Source: Candidatus Anderseniibacteriota bacterium
GTDB lineage: Bacteria > Patescibacteriota > Andersenbacteria > UBA10190
Direction of reading: 5' to 3'
Assembly (NCBI GenBank): GCA_021414205.1
Contig: JAIOOW010000002.1
Span: 89,520-153,519 of the forward strand
Length of the DNA stretch: 64,000 nucleotides
Part shown: positions 38,881 to 46,408 of the stretch, in pieces
How the letters are laid out: each line of letters begins with the position of its first letter
Position numbering within the stretch: position 1 is the stretch's first letter
Program-made: the position numbers and the translations under genes
The notes under the pieces: generated by a model
The model's database searches: none
Seen by the model: the letters and a program-made list of their open reading frames with translations, nothing else
What the model was told of the DNA's origin: nothing

Positions 38881-38973
38881 AATGTGTTACTCGCATGGAG
38901 CTGAAAATAAAAAAGCTTATGTAATTAAAAGCTTATAAAACGACTTTCCCACACCTAAGCACGGGTATTTGTC

Positions 38974-39002
38974 AGGATAGAACATGCTCAGAAAAAAGTC
39001 AA
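38974..39002 (-). promoter_or_regulatory. Putative rplC-operon promoter (TTGACT-N17-TATCCT) ahead of a ~90 nt leader
   Basis: Correct spacing but weak -10; leader carries a 2x AUAAGCUUUU direct repeat. Confidence 0.3.
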
Positions 39003-39052
39003 AGAAAAAAGGGGTGAATTGGGCAAATCGCTGCACCAACCACCCATTGTAC

Positions 39053-39409
39053 TCAAGAGAGCTCATCTGCATGCCCAGAGGTACCCCTAAACACGACTAC
39101 ATGGAGTATCTTACCTGGCGGATCCCGAACAAGCCAAAAGCGTTGGCCTACTAGAGGACAAGACTCTGTCATCCCCTTCCAAATCACCCACTCCTTATGT
39201 ATCTCTCGTGGATCTTGAAGCGATGCACGATACACCACTACACCACGCGCCCATAATCGATCAGCAATATAGCACTGACCACTTACAAGCTCTGTTGGCA
39301 TAATTGACTTCTGCACCCCGCGAGATCTAGGAATAACTACTACTAGAAAGAGTAGAAAAACCGGAATAAAAACCAACCAAGCAATAATCAAGAACTTAAC
39401 AATCAGCAT
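39053..39409 (-). CDS. Hypothetical small membrane-anchored protein (orphan insertion in the S10 cluster)
   Basis: ATG 39409 with AAAGGAAG RBS (the ORF track's upstream start is TTG); predicted N-terminal TM (by eye); no recognised family. Confidence 0.5.
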   Translation of the reverse strand: MLIVKFLIIAWLVFIPVFLLFLVVVIPRSRGVQKSIMPTELVSGQCYIADRLWARGVVVYRASLQDPREIHKEWVIWKGMTESCPLVGQRFWLVRDPPGKILHVVVFRGTSGHADELS

Positions 39410-39598
39410 CGCTATTCTTCCTTTCGAAATACTTATCTTTTCGGACAAGAGCCCAGAAAAGAATCAAGGGGAACGCCAATGGCCAGATCCTAAACAAAAA
39501 ATCAAGCGTATCTTCATCGATCTCCATGATCTCATACTCCCTCTTCTTGAGGATAAAACGAGCTATTTGCACATATACCCGTTGTATATTGCTATATC

Positions 39599-39627
39599 AT
39601 AATATATTAAAAAGTATTAATTGTCAA
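39599..39627 (-). promoter_or_regulatory. Sigma70-like promoter TTGACA-N17-TATTAT for the 39053-39409 gene
   Basis: Minus strand reads TTGACAattaatactttttaataTATTAT. Confidence 0.5.
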
Positions 39628-39639
39628 GTATTGATAGAT

Positions 39640-39679
39640 AAAAAAACGGCAGTCGAATCACGAAGTGAAACAACTGCCG
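39640..39679 (-). terminator. Rho-independent terminator of the 39700-40089 gene
   Basis: CGGCAGT-N19-ACTGCCG stem followed by UUUUUUU on the minus strand. Confidence 0.55.
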
Positions 39680-39699
39680 AAAAAGAGCTGTCCGCTATC

Positions 39700-40089
39700 C
39701 TACTTCACAAGAAGCCCCGTAGACGGATCTGCAAATCGCTCGAATAAACATTTCTGAGAAACCTCTTCTCCATTGGAAAGCGGAACAAAAGCCCCGGAAC
39801 CATTCGGGCAAAACTCGCGACGGATGTGTTCCGGAATTCCTTCTCGCAGTACTGCCAACCAGATTTCTCCGCCAACAGTCACAACGACAAACTTACCATT
39901 ATTATATCCGGAACTTCCAAGTTCGTTCTGTCGAACCTTTTCACCAATAACATACTCGGGAGATCCTTTGTGACCGTAGACCTGAAGGCCAGTCACGTGG
40001 ACAAAGCCGGCATGACGGAGAGTTTCTCTTTGCTCTTGCGTCGTCGGCGTTCCTTGAAAAATGGTGAATTGCTCAGTTGAAACGGACAT
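39700..40089 (-). CDS. Hypothetical soluble protein (orphan insertion in the S10 cluster)
   Basis: 129 aa; AAGGAG RBS 7 nt before ATG; own promoter and terminator; no recognised family. Confidence 0.5.
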   Translation of the reverse strand: MSVSTEQFTIFQGTPTTQEQRETLRHAGFVHVTGLQVYGHKGSPEYVIGEKVRQNELGSSGYNNGKFVVVTVGGEIWLAVLREGIPEHIRREFCPNGSGAFVPLSNGEEVSQKCLFERFADPSTGLLVK

Positions 40090-40105
40090 CTGTTACTCCT
40101 TCGCG

Positions 40106-40156
40106 CCTGCTGGCACTTCTAGCATACTTAAGCCCAAGACGGTTACCTGCTGGCAC
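40106..40156 (-). repeat. Direct repeat GUGCCAGCAGG (x2, 40 nt apart) in the 5' UTR of the 39700-40089 gene
   Basis: CCTGCTGGCAC at 40106-40116 and 40146-40156 on the plus strand, each followed by GCACTTCT-like sequence. Confidence 0.6.
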
Positions 40157-40183
40157 CCTATGCACTTCTCAAGCTCGATTGCA

Positions 40184-40211
40184 ATTATACATAATTATAT
40201 AAATTTGTCAA
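40184..40211 (-). promoter_or_regulatory. Consensus sigma70 promoter TTGACA-N16-TATAAT for the 39700-40089 gene
   Basis: Minus strand reads TTGACAaatttatataattatgTATAAT. Confidence 0.55.
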
Positions 40212-40237
40212 CTATTTATATAAAAAAATCCAGATAA

Positions 40238-40265
40238 CAAAAGACCCCTTTCTAAGGGGTCTTTT
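40238..40265 (-). terminator. Rho-independent terminator immediately after rpsJ
   Basis: AAGACCCCTT-TCTA-AGGGGTCTT perfect 10-bp stem then U-run on the minus strand. Confidence 0.65.
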
Positions 40266-40283
40266 GAGTGGCTTTTACGCCTA

Positions 40284-40628
40284 CTAGACAGTCTTCATTG
40301 ATACATCCACTCCTGCCGGTAAGTTAAGACTCATGAGAGTATCAACTGTTCGGGGTGTAGCCTGTACAATGTCGATCAATCGCTTATGTACTCGGATCTC
40401 ATATTGATCTCGTGCGTTCTTGTGAACGAACGTAGATCGGTTCACCGTGTACTTTTTCTTCGCAGTAGGAAGAGGGGTTGGACCGGCAACTTTCGCGCCG
40501 TCCCGCTCCACCGCATCCATAATCTGCTTTGCAGACTGATCGATCAACTTGTGATCGTATGCCTTCAGCTTGATCCGAATCTTCGGAACAGCTACTGGCG
40601 CTTCAGATTGTTTGGTAGCGTCGCTCAT
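40284..40628 (-). CDS. rpsJ: Ribosomal protein S10
   Basis: [15 protein letters not shown]...; start overlaps the tuf stop (TAATG). Confidence 0.9.
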
Positions 40629-41824
40629 TATTCAATGATTTTTGTAACAACTCCGGCACCAACGGTTCGTCCACCTTCTCGGATAGCGAATCGCATTCCG
40701 TCTTCCATCGCAACCTTTGAACCAAGTTCAACAGTGATTGAGATAGTGTCGCCTGGCATTACCATCTCTGTTCCTTCAGCCAAGAATACTTCTCCAGTTA
40801 CGTCCGTTGTTCGGATGTAGAACTGTGGCTTGTATCCCTTAAAGAATGGAGTGTGGCGTCCGCCTTCGTCTTTTGTAAGAACGTATACTTCAGCTTCGAA
40901 CTTCTTGTGAGGGTTGATAGAACCTGGCTTTGCAACAACCTGTCCTCGTTCAACGTCTTCTTTCTTCAAGCCTCGAAGAAGAACACCGGCATTGTCTCCA
41001 GCTCGTCCTTCATCTAATTGCTTGTTGAACATTTCGATACCGATAATTGTTGTCTTCTGCGTGTCGCGGATTCCAACGATTTCAGCTTCGTCTCCAACTT
41101 TGATAAGTCCTCGTTCGATTCGACCAGTAACCACAGTTCCTCGACCCTCAATAGAGAACACGTCCTCGATTGGAAGCAAGAATGGTTTGTCTACATCTCG
41201 AACTGGTTCTGGAATTGCTTCATCCAATGCTTGGATCAAGTCAAGAATAGGCTTAGCATCTGGATCGTTCAAATCCTTTGAAACCAATGCCTTTGTAGCA
41301 GATCCGCGAATGATTCGCGTATTAGCTCCATCGTATTCGTACTTTGTAAGCACGTCTCGGATTTCTTCCTCAACGAGGTCGATAAGTTCCGGATCATCAA
41401 CAAGGTCAACCTTGTTTAAGAATACAACGATGTTAGAAACACCTACCTGACGAGCCAAGAGAATGTGTTCTCGAGTTTGCGGCATCGGACCATCCGTTGC
41501 AGCTACTACGAGAATTGCTCCATCCATCTGAGCAGCACCGGTAATCATGTTTTTGATGTAGTCGGCGTGGCCTGGGCAGTCTACGTGTGCATAGTGTCTG
41601 TTGTCAGACTCATATTCACAGTGAGCGGTGGAAATTGTAATTCCACGAGCCTTAGATTCTGGAGATTTATCGAGATCATCGATAGACATCACCTTTTTAA
41701 CTCCGCCCTTCATGTTCATCACATGCAGGATTGCAGCAGTCGTGGTCGTCTTTCCATGGTCAACGTGACCAATGGTACCTACGTTCACGTGCGGCTTGTT
41801 TCGTACGAATTTTTCAACAGCCAT
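40628..41824 (-). CDS. tuf: Elongation factor Tu
   Basis: [24 protein letters not shown]. Confidence 0.95.
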
Positions 41825-41935
41825 AGGCTTAAAGTACTTAGAAATAAAATAATAAAATGCCCTCTGGCGTTTTATCCAGTTATTTTTCTTCCCTACAAAA
41901 AGAGCAGAAAAACAACCGCCTCAAGGTCGTATATA

Positions 41936-41964
41936 TTTGTACCAGAAGATAGTTTGCAAGTCAA
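41936..41964 (-). promoter_or_regulatory. Putative tuf promoter (TTGACT-N17-TACAAA, or TTGCAA-N18-TATATA)
   Basis: Good -35 element; -10 imperfect. Confidence 0.3.
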
Positions 41965-41966
41965 TA

Positions 41967-42003
41967 ATAAAAAAGGGCCGGATGAGTATGCACTCAAACG
42001 GCC
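41967..42003 (-). terminator. Weak hairpin plus U-tract terminator after the 42008-42802 gene
   Basis: GGCCG-N18-CGGCC stem followed by UUUUUU on the minus strand. Confidence 0.35.
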
Positions 42004-42007
42004 GCTA

Positions 42008-42802
42008 TTAATCTTTCAGGGTTACCAGATAGTCGAAGAAATCCGTGGCTACGTCCAGGAATTGTGCTGGCTCAGTCTCCAGATACTGGATGCAGAAACT
42101 ATTCACCCGGGCATCGTTTCCTGCTCGAGTCCTTTTCACAAGAAAATCCAATACCGTTTGCGCATTACTAGCCACAGCATCCCTGCTTTTTGCCAGAACG
42201 AGCCCTTTTTCAAGAAGTTTTCGCCACTCATAGACCTCGGGCAATAATGCCACCGTGGATCGCAATGTATGCGCAAGAGGGTTTGGATAGTTGGCGAGCT
42301 TACTTGCAACTTCGTTGCTCCGGTATAGCACTATCTCAGATCCATCTTCAACGAACTTTGAAAACGCGTACCCTTGCGCATCAACCTCAAGTGGCGCGGA
42401 AAGGAATTTCCACATCTCCTGCACAAGACCGTTCGCCTTGCTTTGAACAATACGCACGCGTTTTCGCATGTATTGCTGCCACACCAGATCTTGCAACGCC
42501 TGATACGCGTGTCGAAGTTCGTGACAGAGGACAAATCTCTGCACACCCTGCTGCCGAGCAAAGAAGTACTCACCCAATGCGATATGGGGAGCTGGATTCA
42601 TAGAAAACCCAGCACTACTTGTTTCAGGGTTGCAAAGCCGCGTACCAACCGTCTCCCACCCCTGAAGACTGCAAACATCCGCATATTGAAGCGGAGGAAT
42701 TGCAAGATCTTCTAAGGCCATAATGATGTCAGCATTACAAATCAAATGCATCGCATCCTGCTGCCTTCCAGGGAGAGTAACAATGCGCAAGATGTTCTGC
42801 AT
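42008..42802 (-). CDS. DUF4157-like zincin (HExxH) domain protein, orphan insertion between fusA and tuf
   Basis: GEYFFARQQGVQRFVLCHELRHAYQ resembles the DUF4157 block (Y-F-A-R ... HELxHvxQ); own promoter and AGGAG RBS. Confidence 0.5.
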   Translation of the reverse strand: MQNILRIVTLPGRQQDAMHLICNADIIMALEDLAIPPLQYADVCSLQGWETVGTRLCNPETSSAGFSMNPAPHIALGEYFFARQQGVQRFVLCHELRHAYQALQDLVWQQYMRKRVRIVQSKANGLVQEMWKFLSAPLEVDAQGYAFSKFVEDGSEIVLYRSNEVASKLANYPNPLAHTLRSTVALLPEVYEWRKLLEKGLVLAKSRDAVASNAQTVLDFLVKRTRAGNDARVNSFCIQYLETEPAQFLDVATDFFDYLVTLKD

Positions 42803-42859
42803 AGCACTCGCTCCTTTCTCATAGAAAGTGTTAACGATCAGTCAAAATAGGGAAATCAC

Positions 42860-42887
42860 ACTATACCCTATCTCCTCAAAAAGTCAA
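42860..42887 (-). promoter_or_regulatory. Sigma70-like promoter TTGACT-N16-TATAGT for the 42008-42802 gene
   Basis: Minus strand reads TTGACTttttgaggagatagggTATAGT. Confidence 0.5.
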
Positions 42888-42894
42888 TCTATGA

Positions 42895-43341
42895 TCAGTC
42901 CTGCAGATGCGGGCTTAAGTCGCCTCTATCAGATTCGAATCGGATTTTTGGTACAGGAGGAGGTGTTGGGCGAGTGTACATATTCAAATCATCATCCTCA
43001 TGCACCTCTTCTGCAATATCATCAATTTCATCCTCTTGTTCAAATTGTTCCTGCGCAGCAGTTAAGGCAATATCCCGGTTGATACGGTCAATCACATCAT
43101 CCCCGATTTCCGCATCAATATTTTTCCGAATAGCACTTGCCATCGTATCTGTATCCAAAAATAACTCTAATTGCTGTTCTTCTTGGTGCATTGCCATATG
43201 CTCTTCTTCAAGCGCTTCTCGAGATGCCAATACGAATTCCCGACCCTCATCGTCCATAAATGTAAACTTTCCGCCTAAATCCGATAACACCTGTAAAATC
43301 GGCTCTAATGTTTCTTTAATTGTTTTGGATTCTGTTTGCAT
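42895..43341 (-). CDS. Hypothetical highly acidic protein (Asp/Glu-rich), start at ATG 43341
   Basis: 148 aa; EEEHMAMHQEEQQLE, EDEIDDIAEEVHEDDD; the ORF track's upstream start is TTG. Confidence 0.45.
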   Translation of the reverse strand: MQTESKTIKETLEPILQVLSDLGGKFTFMDDEGREFVLASREALEEEHMAMHQEEQQLELFLDTDTMASAIRKNIDAEIGDDVIDRINRDIALTAAQEQFEQEDEIDDIAEEVHEDDDLNMYTRPTPPPVPKIRFESDRGDLSPHLQD

Positions 43342-43363
43342 GTATTTAAAGTATAGGGAGAAC

Positions 43364-43388
43364 AAAAAACGCGCAATGCGCGTTTTTT
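43364..43388. terminator. Bidirectional A6-CGCGC-AAT-GCGCG-T6 terminator after fusA
   Basis: Perfect palindrome with flanking A-run and T-run. Confidence 0.45.
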
Positions 43389-43391
43389 GTA

Positions 43392-45485
43392 TTATTTCTT
43401 TGCTCGTGTTCCTGCAATTTCTTCTTGAATGTTTCTCGGAACTTCTTCGTAATGGTCGAAGTGCATCGTATAGTTCGCACGCCCTTGGCTCATAGAGCGG
43501 ACCGTCGTTGCGTATCCGAACATTGATCCAAGCGGAACAATTGCATCGATAACTTTAAGATTGGTTCGATCTGTAAGAGATAAGATTTGTCCCCGCCTGG
43601 AATTCAAGTCTCCTACAACATCTCCCATGTATTGCTCAGGAGTTACTACTTCAACTTTCATGATTGGCTCAAGAATAACCGGATCAGCATTTTTCATAGC
43701 TTCTCTAAATGCCATTGCACCCGCAATCTTAAACGCGATTTCAGATGAGTCCACATCGTGGTAACTTCCATCAAATGCAGTTGCCTTTACGTCCACAACA
43801 GGGAATCCGGCAACAATACCGTTCTTCGAAGCTTCATCAACACCCTTTCCAATTGCTGGTAGGTATTCCTGTGGAATAACTCCACCCTTGATCGCTTGCT
43901 CATATTCAACACCTTTTCCGCGATCCTGCGGTTCCAATCGAATCCATACGTGTCCGTATTGTCCGCGTCCTCCAGACTGCTTGATATACTTTCCTTCTGC
44001 TTCAACGGTCTTTCGAATTGTTTCCTTATAGGCAACCTGCGGCTTTCCAACGTTTACTTCAACGCCGAATTCTCGCTTCATACGGTCAACGATAATTTCC
44101 AAATGCAATTCTCCCATTCCTTCCATAATCATCTGCATCGTCTCTTCATCAGTATGCGCTCGAAGGGTCGGGTCTTCTCCCATAAGCGCCTTCAATGCCA
44201 TACCCATCTTTTCTTGGTCTGCCTTAGACTTCGGTTCGATCGCAAGAGAGATAACTGGTTCATGGCCCACGATACGTTCCAAAATAATCGGCGCATCTTC
44301 CGCACATAGCGTATCCCCTGTCGTCGTCGCCTTCATACCAACTAGGGCACCAATTCCACCGGCAGAAATTTCCTCAACTTCTTCTCGCTCGTTAGCATGC
44401 ATGCGCAAGATTCGGCTAATACGTTCTCGCTTTCCGTTCGAAGCGTTGAGTACGTAAGATCCTGTCGTAAGCTTTCCGGAATATACACGGAAGAATGTAA
44501 TCTGCCCGACGTATGGGTCGGTCGCAACTTTGAACGCAAGCGCTGCGAAGGGCTCTGTATCTAAAGGCTTTCGAATAAGAACCTTTTCCGGATCATCAAC
44601 ATCAACACCCTCAACTGGAGGAACGTCAGATGGTGAAGGCAAGTATGCAACAACTGCATCAAGCATTCGCTGTACGCCCTTATTCTTCAACGCCGTTCCG
44701 CACAAAATTGGAACAACCTTGCTTGCAATAACAGCAGATCGAAGTACTGCGTTTAATTCATCAACAGAAATATCTTCTCCGTTTAAATATTTCTCCGTAA
44801 GAGCATCATCAAACCCGGCGATTACATCAACCATTTCTGCACGTCGAACCTTTGCATCTTCCAATAATTCTGCAGGGATATCTTTTTCCACAATCGTCGT
44901 TCCCATTTCTCCTTCGAAGTACCACGCCTTCATAGAAAGCAAATCGATAATACCTTCAAACGCTTCTTCGGATCCGATTGGGAGCGTTAAAATCACGGTC
45001 GTTTTCGTAAGTCGTTCGTGAATAGAATCAACTACTTTCCAAAAGTCTGCGCCCGTTCGATCAAGTTTATTTACGAAACACATGCGCGGAACTTTGTGCT
45101 TGTCCGCTTGGCGCCACACTGTTTCTGATTGCGGCTCAACTCCGGCAACGCCGTCGAATACAACCACAGCTCCGTCCAATACGCGCAAGCTTCGCTCTAC
45201 TTCAACGGTAAAGTCTACGTGCCCTGGTGTATCGATCAAGTTTAATCGGTACCCTTTCCAAAATGCCGTAGTCGTCGCAGAGGTAATCGTAATACCGCGC
45301 TCTCGTTCCTGTTCCATCCAGTCCATGACGGTATCCCCCTCATGCACTTCACCAATCTTGTGAGTTAATCCTGTATAAAACAAAATACGCTCCGATACCG
45401 TTGTTTTTCCAGCATCGATGTGCGCAATAATTCCAAAATTTCTTACCTTCTCAATAGGTACCTGTGGGAACTTTGTATCGGCCAT
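43392..45485 (-). CDS. fusA: Elongation factor G
   Basis: [22 protein letters not shown]; 697 aa. Confidence 0.95.
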
Positions 45486-45500
45486 ATGTAATATAAAAAA

Positions 45501-45977
45501 TTAACGAGCAAAATGAGAGAACGCTCGGTTCGCCTCAGCCATTCGATGCATGTCTTCACGCTTCTTCATAGCTCCGCCTTCTTTATTCGAAGCTTCAATA
45601 AGTTCTGCGGCAAGCTTTTCTGCCATCGATTTTCCACCGCGAGATCGCGATGCATCACGAAGCCATCGCATAGAAAGCGTGTCTTTGCGAGCAGGGCGTA
45701 CTTCTTGCGCGATTTGATAGTTAGCACCACCAACTCGGCGAGCCTTTACTTCAAGTACTGGCGCAACGTTTCGAAGCGCAGCATCAAACACCATAAGAGG
45801 ATCGTTCTTTGTCTTCTCAGAAATAATCTCAAGAGCATCATACATTACTCGCTGAGCCGTGCTCTTCTTTCCATCATACATGATGTAGTTGATAAACTTA
45901 GACAACGCCAAGTTTCCGAACTTTGGATCCGGCTGCAAATGTTTCTTATTCTTATATACTCGCTTTTTTCGTGGCAT
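45501..45977 (-). CDS. rpsG: Ribosomal protein S7
   Basis: 158 aa; operon position after rpsL. Confidence 0.9.
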   Translation of the reverse strand: MPRKKRVYKNKKHLQPDPKFGNLALSKFINYIMYDGKKSTAQRVMYDALEIISEKTKNDPLMVFDAALRNVAPVLEVKARRVGGANYQIAQEVRPARKDTLSMRWLRDASRSRGGKSMAEKLAAELIEASNKEGGAMKKREDMHRMAEANRAFSHFAR

Positions 45978-45985
45978 AAAATAGA

Positions 45986-46408
45986 TTATTCAGATTTTGG
46001 TTTCTTAGCTCCGTATCGGCTTCGTCCTCGTCGTCGAGCCTCAACTCCAACAGTATCGAGCACGCCTCGCACTACCTGGTATCGAATACCTGGCAAGTCT
46101 TTTCTTCGTCCGCCTCGGATTACTACGATGGAATGCTCCTGGAGGTTATGACCTTCGCCTGGGATAAACGCAGTAACTTCCATTCCGTTCGTAAGTCGCA
46201 CACGAGCAACTTTTCGAAGAGCGGAGTTCGGTTTCTTTGGAGTCATCGTCTTTACCTGCAAGCATACTCCACGCTTAAACGGGGATCCTTTAGGAAATAC
46301 CGTTGGCTTGTCGATTAATGTATTAAAACCTCTCTGCAGGGCAGGAGTCTTGGATTTCGATGGTTTCCGTTCTCGGTTTTTTCGTACTAATTGATTAATA
46401 GTTGGCAC
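45986..46408 (-). CDS. rpsL: Ribosomal protein S12
   Basis: [10 protein letters not shown]...[10 protein letters not shown]. Confidence 0.95.

What the first reader, a model, noticed from the sequence alone, without database searches (positions are those of the whole stretch)
41825..43391. Second orphan insertion between fusA and tuf: a DUF4157-like zincin (HExxH) protein plus a highly acidic partner
fusA and tuf are normally adjacent in the str operon. Here 1.5 kb separates them. It holds a 264-aa protein whose N-terminal part reads GEYFFARQQ...RFVLCHELRHAYQ. I recall this Y-F-A-R ... HELxHvxQ arrangement as the signature of DUF4157, a zincin-like metallopeptidase domain described at the N-termini of polymorphic toxins and effectors. 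The gene has its own TTGACT-N16-TATAGT promoter, an AGGAG RBS and a terminator. The second gene encodes a 148-aa extremely acidic protein (Glu/Asp runs). tuf has acquired its own promoter downstream. A toxin- or effector-like metallopeptidase with a possible acidic inhibitor or chaperone, parked inside the translation-factor operon of a reduced genome, could be an uncharacterised effector/immunity or regulatory pair.
Basis: partly seen in the sequence, partly recalled or inferred. Interest (0 to 1): 0.7.

Follow-up and report, generated by a model that had tools for sequence, protein, structure and literature searches.

The report
Orphan zinc-protease cassette upstream of tuf
The gap between the EF-G and EF-Tu genes of this tiny-genome (Candidatus Andersenbacteria) bacterium holds two unrelated things: a small acidic protein that belongs to the translation operon throughout the lineage, and a strain-variable, self-contained gene for a new kind of zinc-protease-like protein lodged in an insertion hot spot at the tuf promoter; it is not a toxin/antidote pair.

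Summary
The physical features are real: two minus-strand genes fill the 1,567-bp fusA–tuf gap. The order is acidic gene first, then the HExxH gene.

**264-aa protein**
- It carries HELRH, its own TTGACT-16-TATAGT promoter, an AGGAG ribosome-binding site and a strong terminator.
- It is not a DUF4157 (now Pfam eCIS_core) member: the query gives no hit, and the best relative scores 17.4 bits against a 22-bit cut-off.
- It belongs to a tiny orphan family of 7 clusters among 1.84 billion proteins.

**148-aa acidic protein**
- It is not a dedicated partner. It has at least 167 clusters and sits as fusA–X–tuf in every relative examined, with or without the zincin.
- It is under strong purifying selection and ends in an invariant C-terminal peptide.

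**The slot**
- The stretch between the acidic gene's stop codon and the tuf −10 box is a hot spot.
- In relatives it is empty, or it holds transposase-like, helicase/HNH or DUF3800 genes.
- One close relative appears to have lost the zincin cassette cleanly.

The most likely reading is a cytoplasmic accessory metallopeptidase of unknown substrate. The toxin/immunity idea is not supported. Interest is modest.

The parts
43392..45485 (-). fusA (EF-G, 697 aa), upstream boundary of the gap
   Evidence: ORF. Pfam GTP_EFTU/EFG domains on the orthologues.
43362..43390 (.). Perfect 14+14 palindrome with flanking A/T runs: a bidirectional terminator-like hairpin directly after the fusA stop codon
   Evidence: I4; -17.2 kcal/mol, z -6.6. 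Conserved in L001, L007 and L008.
43350..43355 (-). -10-like hexamer TATACT, 8 nt before the acidic gene's ATG, with no Shine-Dalgarno sequence. Suggests a leaderless mRNA (inferred).
   Evidence: A TATACA/TATAGT/TAGAGT hexamer lies 7-9 nt before the ATG in L001, L007, L008, L012, L014 and L022; L010 shows no clear such hexamer at that spacing. L022 reads TTGACT-17-TAGAGT-7-ATG.
42895..43341 (-). 148-aa acidic protein (pI 4.15). A lineage-wide member of the str operon with an invariant C-terminal peptide (I/V)RFExxxGDLxPxLQ.
   Evidence: at least 167 clusters. Synteny fusA-X-tuf. dN/dS 0.01-0.06. No Pfam, NCBIfam, PDB or PADLOC hit. AlphaFold2 model is poor, pLDDT 64.
41945..42898 (-). 954-bp cassette that is present here but replaced by about 27 bp in the close relative L008. 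It is bounded on both sides by ATTGACTT (a -35 box).
   Evidence: blastn and junction sequences. No terminal inverted or long direct repeats.
42860..42887 (-). Promoter of the HExxH gene, TTGACT-16-TATAGT. It starts 8 nt after the acidic gene's stop codon.
   Evidence: Conserved in L001 and L007; a variant form (TTGACA ... TTATAT) is seen in L006.
42811..42815 (-). Shine-Dalgarno AGGAG of the HExxH gene
42008..42802 (-). 264-aa soluble gluzincin-like protein (orphan family). HELRH is residues 94-98 (nt 42509-42523). Candidate third ligand is E139 in SxPxExDA (nt 42386-42388).
41968..42006 (-). Intrinsic terminator of the HExxH gene (two-tier hairpin plus U6)
   Evidence: -16.7 kcal/mol, z -4.6. 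Conserved with compensatory changes in L001, L006 and L007.
41936..41964 (-). tuf promoter TTGACT-17-TACAAA(T), ancestral to the clade
   Evidence: present before tuf in L008, L010, L012, L014, L018 and L022.
41825..41935 (-). Structured tuf 5' leader: conserved outer stem, variable inner hairpin, U-rich tract
   Evidence: No Rfam match.
40628..41824 (-). tuf (EF-Tu, 398 aa), downstream boundary
   Evidence: Orthologues.

Best explanation
The fusA-tuf gap of this Candidatus Andersenbacteria genome holds two independent elements.

**1. The acidic gene is resident.** The 148-aa acidic protein is a strongly constrained member of the str operon in this lineage (rpsL-rpsG-fusA-X-tuf). It probably has its own promoter and a leaderless mRNA. 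Its layout is a small folded N-terminal part, an acidic disordered linker and an invariant C-terminal peptide. Together with its operon position, this points to a translation-associated binding role (inferred).

**2. The HExxH gene is cargo.** A 954-bp promoter-gene-terminator cassette is wedged between the acidic gene's stop codon and the -10 box of the tuf promoter. It encodes a soluble cytoplasmic protein with a gluzincin-type metallopeptidase core.
- Inferred active site: H94 and H98 of HELRH plus E139 of the conserved SxPxExDA motif bind zinc, and E95 is the catalytic base.
- A C-terminal all-helical domain probably caps the active site.
- The protein founds a tiny orphan family.

**3. 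The slot is a recombination hot spot.** In relatives it is empty or carries other accessory or mobile cargo. The zincin is therefore strain-variable cargo that evolves quickly under purifying selection. It was probably present in the ancestor of the closest relatives and lost from one of them.

**Shown versus inferred.** Shown here: the anatomy, distribution, fold class, selection pattern and independence from the acidic gene. Inferred: catalytic activity. The biological role, perhaps a conflict or defence function or regulated proteolysis, is unknown.
For: **Organism and family size**
- The exact protein is annotated in a Candidatus Andersenbacteria MAG.
- Only 4 homologues were found by word search and 7 representatives by exhaustive HMM search of 1.84 billion proteins.

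**Motifs and fold**
- HELRH, and E139/D141 of the SxPxExDA motif, are each kept in 9 of 10 members.
- The AlphaFold2 model has pLDDT 93.4 and pTM 0.90: a beta-sheet, then the helix carrying HELRH, then the helix carrying E139.
- Weak Pfam echoes are confined to the HExxH core: DUF6782 in 7/10 members, eCIS_core 3/10, SprT-like 3/10, M91 3/10.
- There is no transmembrane segment or signal peptide.

**Expression signals:**

**Cassette boundaries against the empty site in L008:**

**Slot contents in relatives**
- Empty: L008, L010, L022.
- Zincin: window, L001-5, L007, L018.
- Zincin plus a transposase-like gene: L006.
- Transposase-like gene plus DUF3800: L014.
- ResIII/HNH-repeat helicase: L012.
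- Sources.

**Evolution**
- fusA dS places L008 (no zincin) inside the zincin-bearing group: window-L008 0.41, window-L007 0.47, window-L001 0.68.
- Zincin dN/dS is 0.11-0.23, against 0.01-0.06 for the acidic gene and fusA.
- The zincin gene's GC3 is 0.50, against a mean of 0.40 +/- 0.04 for 34 window genes.

**Acidic protein:** at least 167 clusters with an invariant C-terminus, and fusA-X-tuf synteny holds even at 35% identity.
Against: - No sequence-level match to any curated peptidase family reaches threshold.
- I could not inspect the model's coordinates, so the convergence of H94, H98 and E139 is inferred from conservation and helix positions.
- One family member (P0039) has RELRR in place of HELRH, so catalysis is not universal.
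- A homologue at only 40% identity (L018) also sits directly upstream of tuf. This could mean a functional tie to tuf rather than mere hot-spot residence.
- Most distant homologues lie on contigs of about 2.4 kb or less, so their contexts are incomplete.
Confidence: 0.65

Rival explanations
1. One reading: the 264-aa protein is a DUF4157-type toxin or effector metallopeptidase, and the acidic protein is its cognate inhibitor, immunity protein or chaperone.
For: - The HExxHxxQ motif and the preceding strand resemble the C-terminal half of the eCIS_core (former DUF4157) profile in 3 of 10 family members (E 0.005-0.2).
- The two genes are adjacent in the window, L001, L007 and L006.
- There is no terminator between them.
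Against: - The query has no PF13699 hit at E<=10. The best family member scores 17.4 bits against a 22-bit threshold.
- DUF4157 is defined by its association with contractile-injection-system operons and fused or adjacent toxins (PMC8213781). Neither is present here.
- The acidic protein is about 20 times more widespread than the zincin. It keeps its fusA-X-tuf position without the zincin.
- The acidic protein is under housekeeping-like constraint, dN/dS 0.01-0.06.
- Zincin homologues in L018, L019 and L021 have other upstream neighbours.
Confidence: 0.04
2. A Lit-like abortive-infection protease: a latent HExxH peptidase that cleaves a translation factor (EF-Tu, EF-G or the acidic operon protein) when a phage cue appears, parked beside its target's gene.
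For: - Lit of E. coli e14 is an HExxH zinc protease that cleaves EF-Tu during T4 infection (PMC3014915).
- This gene is a solo, self-expressed, fast-evolving accessory gene.
- The slot's other occupants include defence-like or mobile genes: a ResIII/HNH helicase with hits to restriction and PbeA models, and DUF3800. A HicA-like gene lies elsewhere in the same fusA-tuf gap in L014.
- A 40%-identical homologue also sits directly upstream of tuf.
Against: - No hit to any PADLOC defence model, to Pfam's Lit family (Peptidase_U49) or to any PHROG.
- No relatives on phage, plasmid or viral contigs.
- Adjacency to tuf is equally explained by the hot spot, which also collects unrelated genes.
Confidence: 0.1
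3. A lineage-specific housekeeping or regulatory protease that serves the translation operon, for example by processing or turning over the acidic protein or a ribosomal component. On this view it is ancestral at this position and repeatedly lost.
For: - Parsimony on fusA dS suggests loss in L008 rather than gain elsewhere.
- The position upstream of tuf is kept between homologues that are 40-100% identical.
- The gene is under purifying selection.
Against: - It is absent from most Andersenbacteria that carry the acidic gene.
- There are only 7 clusters worldwide.
- Its dN is about 10 times that of its neighbours.
- It has its own promoter and terminator, and elevated GC3.
- More distant homologues sit in other contexts, for example beside a RadC-like gene in L021.
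Confidence: 0.12
4. A non-catalytic zincin-fold protein (pseudo-enzyme, binding module or scaffold).
For: - P0039 has RELRR and lacks E139; P0040 lacks D141.
- Large helical C-terminal domain.
- No significant match to any active peptidase family.
Against: - H94, E95 and H98 are kept in 9 of 10 members down to 20% identity.
- E95 is invariant, and the SxPxExDA motif is co-conserved.
Confidence: 0.09

Closest known systems
Peptidase family M48 / M56 gluzincins (BepA, HtpX, Ste24/ZMPSTE24, BlaR1)
   Same: - HExxH sits on a helix preceded by a beta-sheet.
- A conserved Glu lies on a later helix, about 40 residues downstream, in an ExDA-type motif.
   Different: - No Pfam M48/M56 hit and no PDB sequence hit, even at E<=10.
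- The protein is soluble, with no transmembrane segments or TPR domain.
- It has a distinct 110-residue helical C-terminal domain.
- The family is tiny and restricted to one lineage.
Pfam DUF6782 (putative metallopeptidase family)
   Same: The most consistent sequence echo: 7 of 10 members match profile positions ~59-108, which cover the strand and the HExxH helix.
   Different: - All scores are 12-18.6 bits, against a gathering score of 27.
- Only about 50 of the 241 profile positions align.
- No literature mentions DUF6782.
Pfam PF13699 eCIS_core (former DUF4157, 'PVC-metallopeptidase')
   Same: HExxHxxQ with a preceding hydrophobic strand. Three of 10 members give sub-threshold matches to profile positions 41-75 of 79.
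   Different: - The query itself gives no hit, and the best relative scores 17.4 bits against 22.
- DUF4157 is a marker of extracellular contractile injection systems and sits N-terminal to, or next to, toxins (PMC8213781).
- Here the neighbours are fusA, tuf and a housekeeping-like acidic gene, and there is no toxin domain.
Lit protease of E. coli prophage e14 (Peptidase_U49)
   Same: A solo accessory HExxH zinc protease of similar size linked to translation elongation: Lit cleaves EF-Tu (PMC3014915). Here the gene abuts tuf.
   Different: - No sequence similarity was detected in Pfam or PADLOC.
- There is no prophage context.
- No evidence on substrate was obtained.

Membership tests
DUF4157 / eCIS_core (PF13699) | Match to the Pfam profile at or above the gathering score (22 bits) | tested here: not met
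   The query has no hit at E<=10. The best family members score 17.4, 15.9 and 12.3 bits.
DUF4157 / eCIS_core (PF13699) | HExxH motif | tested here: met
   HELRH at residues 94-98, conserved in 9 of 10 members.
DUF4157 / eCIS_core (PF13699) | Encoded in or next to a contractile-injection-system operon, or fused or adjacent to a toxin domain (PMC8213781) | tested here: not met
   Neighbours are fusA, the acidic gene and tuf in the window and in relatives. The C-terminal half has no Pfam hit.
Zincin / gluzincin metallopeptidase fold (clan MA(E)) | HExxH on an 'active-site' helix that follows a mixed beta-sheet | tested here: met
   Model pLDDT 93.4. Strands at 5-9, 38-42, 64-67 and 73-76, then helix 85-103 carrying H94-H98.
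Zincin / gluzincin metallopeptidase fold (clan MA(E)) | Third zinc ligand: a Glu on a downstream helix | tested here: inconclusive
   E139 lies in the conserved SxPxExDA motif on helix 136-149 and is kept in 9 of 10 members. I could not inspect the model coordinates, so the geometry is unverified.
Zincin / gluzincin metallopeptidase fold (clan MA(E)) | Structural similarity to solved zincins | tested here: met
   [not shown]
Zincin / gluzincin metallopeptidase fold (clan MA(E)) | Zinc binding and peptide-bond hydrolysis | not testable with these tools
   Needs biochemistry.
Peptidase M48 (BepA/HtpX/Ste24) | Sequence-profile membership, and membrane or periplasmic architecture | tested here: not met
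   No Pfam M48 hit in any of the 10 members. No PDB sequence hit at E<=10. No transmembrane segment.
DUF6782 | Match to the Pfam profile at or above the gathering score (27 bits) | tested here: not met
   Best score is 18.6 bits, and only about 50 of 241 profile positions align.
Lit-type abortive-infection protease | Similarity to Lit / Peptidase_U49 or to any PADLOC defence model | tested here: not met
   No PADLOC hit at E<=0.1. Peptidase_U49 is not among the Pfam hits of any member.
Toxin-antitoxin or effector-immunity gene pair | The two genes co-occur and are inherited together | tested here: not met
   The acidic gene occurs without the zincin in L008, L010, L012, L014 and L022. The zincin occurs without an adjacent acidic gene in L018, L019 and L021. 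Cluster counts are at least 167 against 7.
ImmA/IrrE-type (M78) regulatory protease of mobile elements | Pfam M78 match and an adjacent HTH repressor gene | tested here: not met
   No such Pfam hit. No HTH gene beside it in any context.

The most novel reading that the evidence does not exclude
In Andersenbacteria the promoter of tuf is a dedicated landing pad for conflict genes. The orphan zincin lodged there is a latent, Lit-like suicide or regulatory protease whose substrate is a translation component encoded next door: EF-Tu, EF-G, or the lineage-specific acidic protein. That acidic protein would itself be a new translation-factor- or ribosome-binding protein acting through its invariant C-terminal peptide.
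Probability: 0.08. Interest if true: 0.7.

Novelty: new variant of a known kind. Interest (0 to 1): 0.33.

Why it matters
As posed, a toxin/immunity pair inside the translation operon, the finding does not hold, so its importance is modest. Three things remain.

1. **A new orphan family of soluble gluzincin-like proteins.** It is known only from a handful of candidate-phyla-radiation (CPR) genomes and adds a data point on accessory proteases in ultra-small bacteria.
2. **An insertion hot spot inside a promoter of the most conserved operon in bacteria.** It shows that even reduced genomes keep a slot for variable cargo.
3. **A side-product that may be more interesting than the zincin.** A strongly conserved acidic protein sits between fusA and tuf across a whole CPR lineage. 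Its invariant C-terminal peptide is a testable candidate for a lineage-specific translation-associated factor.

Tried and rejected
**Family and sequence searches on the zincin and the acidic protein**
- Pfam, NCBIfam, PADLOC and PHROGs scans of both proteins gave nothing at threshold.
- PDB sequence search with the zincin profile found nothing at E<=10.

**Structure searches**
- Foldseek against PDB gave nothing significant.
- The Foldseek afdb50 library was unavailable.
- Foldseek against viral structures gave only a non-significant top hit: E 0.056, probability 0.99, a phage protein labelled 'cobalamin biosynthesis protein'.
- The AlphaFold2 model of the acidic protein has pLDDT 64, too poor for a fold search.

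**Wider searches for zincin relatives**
- The genome-contig scan found 1 locus, identical to L001. The metagenome-contig scan found 1 short contig. The viral-contig scan found none.
- tblastn against phage and plasmid records found no match.

**Other tests**
- Rfam on the region gave only chance-level hits.
- A search for terminal inverted or direct repeats around the cassette found only the 8-bp ATTGACTT shared with the -35 box, so it is not an obvious IS or MITE.
- hhalign of the zincin profile against the 291-aa cargo protein of L010 showed they are unrelated.

**Ideas considered and rejected**
- DUF4157 membership.
- An effector/immunity pair.
- 'tuf acquired its own promoter' because of the insertion.
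- Plus-strand ORFs overlapping the region (41465-42247 and 42974-43495). These are shadows of minus-strand genes that are conserved and under purifying selection.

**Left unresolved**
- tuf is 98.8% identical at the nucleotide level between the window and L008. I considered recent recombination at the cassette boundary, but strong codon constraint on tuf explains the figure about equally well.
Full report
**1. What is there**

All genes in this part of the window lie on the minus strand. The order is:
- rpsL (45986-46408)
- rpsG (45501-45977)
- fusA (43392-45485)
- a 148-aa acidic ORF (42895-43341)
- a 264-aa HExxH ORF (42008-42802)
- tuf (40628-41824)
- rpsJ (40284-40628)
- two further small orphan ORFs
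- rplC

The exact 264-aa and 148-aa proteins are annotated as hypothetical proteins of a Candidatus Andersenbacteria MAG, a member of the Patescibacteria/CPR.

**2. Expression signals**

- A perfect 14+14 palindrome with flanking A/T runs follows the fusA stop codon (43362-43390; -17.2 kcal/mol, z -6.6).
- The acidic gene has no Shine-Dalgarno sequence. Instead a -10-like hexamer lies 7-9 nt before its ATG: TATACT here, and TATACA, TATAGT or TAGAGT in relatives. This holds in six of the seven relatives examined (not clearly in L010), and L022 reads TTGACT-17-TAGAGT-7-ATG. I infer a leaderless mRNA, but this was not shown.
- Eight nucleotides after the acidic gene's stop codon begins TTGACT-16-TATAGT (42887..42860, 10 of 12 positions matched). 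It is one of the two best promoter matches in 6.4 kb, the other being the one before rpsL.
- AGGAG lies 8 nt before the HExxH gene's ATG.
- A two-tier hairpin plus a U6 run follows that gene's stop codon (-16.7 kcal/mol, z -4.6).
- Next comes TTGACT-17-TACAAAT and a 110-nt leader before tuf.

So the physical observation is confirmed.

**3. The 264-aa protein**

*Sequence searches.*
- Pfam gives no DUF4157 hit for the query at E<=10. (DUF4157 is PF13699, now named eCIS_core.)
- The only echoes are DUF6782 (E 0.016, residues 83-105) and Peptidase_M91 (E 0.23). NCBIfam, PADLOC, PHROGs and PDB sequence searches give nothing.
- The word-indexed search of 5.8 billion proteins found 4 relatives at 100, 85, 76 and 61% identity.
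- An exhaustive HMM search of 1.84 billion cluster representatives found 7. This is a very small family.

*Conservation.* In the 10-sequence alignment, which reaches down to 20% identity:
- E95, L96 and R97 are invariant.
- H94 and H98 are kept in 9 of 10 members. P0039 has RELRR instead.
- A second motif, F-L-S-x-P-x-E139-x-D141-A, has E139 and D141 each kept in 9 of 10.
- P188 and Y191 (LLPxxY) and R115 are invariant.

*Pfam scan of every member.* All scores are below the gathering thresholds and are confined to the strand-plus-HExxH-helix core:

| Pfam family | Members matching | Best score |
|---|---|---|
| DUF6782 | 7 of 10 | 18.6 bits (cut-off 27) |
| eCIS_core | 3 of 10 | 17.4 bits (cut-off 22) |
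| SprT-like | 3 of 10 | below threshold |
| M91 | 3 of 10 | below threshold |

*Structure.*
- AlphaFold2 on the 10-sequence alignment gives a confident model (pLDDT 93.4, pTM 0.90).
- It shows a four-stranded sheet with helices (residues 1-76), a helix at 85-103 carrying HELRH, a helix at 136-149 carrying E139, and an all-helical C-terminal half.
- Foldseek was not significant.

*Other properties.*
- No hydrophobic segment is long enough for a membrane span or signal peptide, and the pI is 6.0.

*Conclusion.* This is a soluble gluzincin-like protein forming a new family. It is not a demonstrable member of DUF4157, DUF6782 or M48. The defining context of DUF4157, contractile injection systems and fused or adjacent toxins (PMC8213781), is also absent.

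**4. The acidic protein is not its partner**

- A single-sequence search found 30 clusters, and a profile search at least 167. All are 120-175 aa and unnamed, and where labelled they come from Andersenbacteria or Patescibacteria.
- In every context retrieved the gene lies between fusA and tuf. These are the window, L001-5, L007, L006, L008/9, L010/11, L012/13, L014/15 and L022/23. The last is only 35% identical and has nothing else in the gap.
- Five of these lineages have no zincin.
- Conversely, zincin homologues have other upstream neighbours: a divergently oriented 139-aa ORF in L018 (40% identity), a 118-aa ORF in L019 (31%) and the end of a RadC/JAB-like gene in L021 (25%).
- The acidic gene's dN/dS is 0.01-0.06, like fusA. 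The zincin's is 0.11-0.23, with about ten-fold higher dN.
- The acidic family keeps a beta-hairpin block (LGGxFxFxDxxGxxFV), a helix (INRDIA) and, after a variable acidic linker, an invariant extreme C-terminal peptide (V/I)RFEP(L/I)(R/K)GDLPP(E/D)LQ(E/D).
- Its AlphaFold2 model is poor (pLDDT 64), consistent with long helices and disorder.
- I read it as a lineage-specific str-operon protein, plausibly binding a translation component through its C-terminal peptide. This rests on operon position and architecture only.

**5. The slot is a hot spot and the zincin is cargo**

*Boundaries.* Against L008, a relative with about 92% identical fusA and a 93% identical acidic protein, homology runs through the acidic gene's stop codon (window 42899). 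It resumes at the tuf -10 box (41944). The 954 bp in between are replaced by about 27 bp in L008. Both ends of the cassette carry ATTGACTT. The -35 box next to the acidic gene's stop drives the zincin, and a second copy after the zincin terminator serves tuf. No inverted or long direct repeats flank the cassette.

*Slot contents in relatives.*
- L012/13 carry a 525-650-aa ResIII helicase with HNH-associated repeats (Pfam E 5e-31, with PADLOC hits to restriction-type and PbeA models).
- L014/15 carry a 565-aa transposase-like protein (phrog_4285, E 5e-10) plus a DUF3800 protein.
- In L006 a 526-aa homologue of that transposase-like protein (59% identical, E 2e-14) sits right after the zincin terminator, within the tuf promoter spacer.
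- Between fusA and the acidic gene, L014 has a HicA-like gene, and L010 has a 291-aa ORF plus a GNAT gene.
- Sources.

*Gain or loss.* fusA synonymous distances are window-L008 0.41, window-L007 0.47, L008-L007 0.48, and 0.62-0.68 to L001. These place L008 (no zincin) inside the group that carries it. Loss in L008 is therefore more parsimonious than three gains.

*Composition and origin.* The zincin's GC3 (0.50) is 2.3 sd above the mean of 34 window genes. No relatives were found on phage, plasmid or viral contigs.

**6. How it most likely works**

*Shown:*
- A self-contained transcription unit.
- A protein under purifying selection.
- A confident zincin-like fold.
- Conservation of HExxH and of a downstream Glu/Asp motif.
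- Cytoplasmic location.
- Variable presence in a hot spot.
- Independence from the acidic gene.

*Inferred:*
- H94, H98 and E139 bind zinc, and E95 activates water.
- Y191 or R115 may stabilise the transition state.
- The helical C-terminal domain gates access to the active site.

The substrate and biological role are unknown. Given the company kept by the slot and the fast evolution, a conflict-related role is the most attractive. A Lit-like protease acting on a translation factor (PMC3014915) is the most interesting version. But no defence, Lit or phage similarity was found, so I give that version about 10%. A housekeeping link to the operon is possible, because L018 shows the same position at 40% identity, but the sparse distribution argues against it.

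**7. Verdict**

- The zincin is a new variant within a well-known fold class, with a narrow distribution and unknown role.
- Interest is modest at about 0.33. It is raised slightly by two by-products: the conserved acidic str-operon protein, and the promoter-embedded hot spot with a structured tuf leader.

Noticed in passing
window 42895-43341 (-); L008, L010, L012, L014, L022: The acidic protein is a lineage-wide str-operon gene with at least 167 clusters, found as fusA-X-tuf even at 35% identity. Its extreme C-terminal peptide (V/I)RFEPLRGDLPPELQ(E/D) is invariant and follows a variable acidic linker. It is a candidate lineage-specific translation-associated factor.
   Followed up: partly
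window 43341-43355 (-); same position in L001, L007, L008, L012, L014, L022: The acidic gene lacks a Shine-Dalgarno sequence. A -10-like hexamer lies 7-9 nt before its ATG in six of seven relatives examined (L022 reads TTGACT-17-TAGAGT-7-ATG). This suggests a leaderless mRNA.
   Followed up: partly
window 41825-41935 (-): The tuf 5' leader is conserved across Andersenbacteria. An outer stem (CCUUG.GGCG / CGCC..AGGG) encloses a hairpin of variable sequence and length with compensatory changes, followed by a U-rich tract. It looks like a terminator or attenuator, and there is no Rfam match.
   Followed up: partly
L006 1250-2830; L014 5610-7307: Two 59%-identical transposase-like proteins (526 and 565 aa) hit phrog_4285 at E 2e-14 and 5e-10, with a weak IS110-type Transposase_20 signal. 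Both occupy the same slot upstream of tuf in two divergent genomes. In L006 the insertion point is inside the tuf promoter spacer. The contig carrying P0035 (a zincin at 40% identity) also has a gene of more than 456 aa right after the zincin. No copy exists in the window.
   Followed up: partly
window 38881-40283 (-): The rpsJ-rplC gap holds two orphan ORFs: 129 aa, and 131 aa with a hydrophobic N-terminal segment. The same gap holds different small ORFs in L001, L008, L010 and L012. It is closed in the distant relative L022, so this is a second variable slot in the operon.
   Followed up: no
window 40628-41944 vs L008 5468-6784: tuf and its leader are 98-99% identical at the nucleotide level between the window and L008 (dS 0.05). 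Flanking fusA is 92.5% identical (dS 0.41). The cause is either very strong codon constraint or a recent recombination ending at the cassette boundary.
   Followed up: partly
P0039 (family member, 26% identical): One zincin homologue has RELRR in place of HELRH and Val in place of E139. It is a probable inactivated or pseudo-enzyme variant.
   Followed up: no
L001/L016 (CAYVFG010000012.1): The depositor titled this contig 'uncultured Candidatus Saccharibacteria'. Its str locus is about 90% identical in DNA to this Andersenbacteria window, so the label is probably a taxonomic misassignment. Its tuf is broken by a run of N.
   Followed up: no
L014 4382-4961: A 117-aa ORF and a 79-aa HicA-like ORF (Pfam HicA_toxin E 6e-4) lie between fusA and the acidic gene. 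This may be a HicAB-type toxin-antitoxin pair in the other half of the gap.
   Followed up: no
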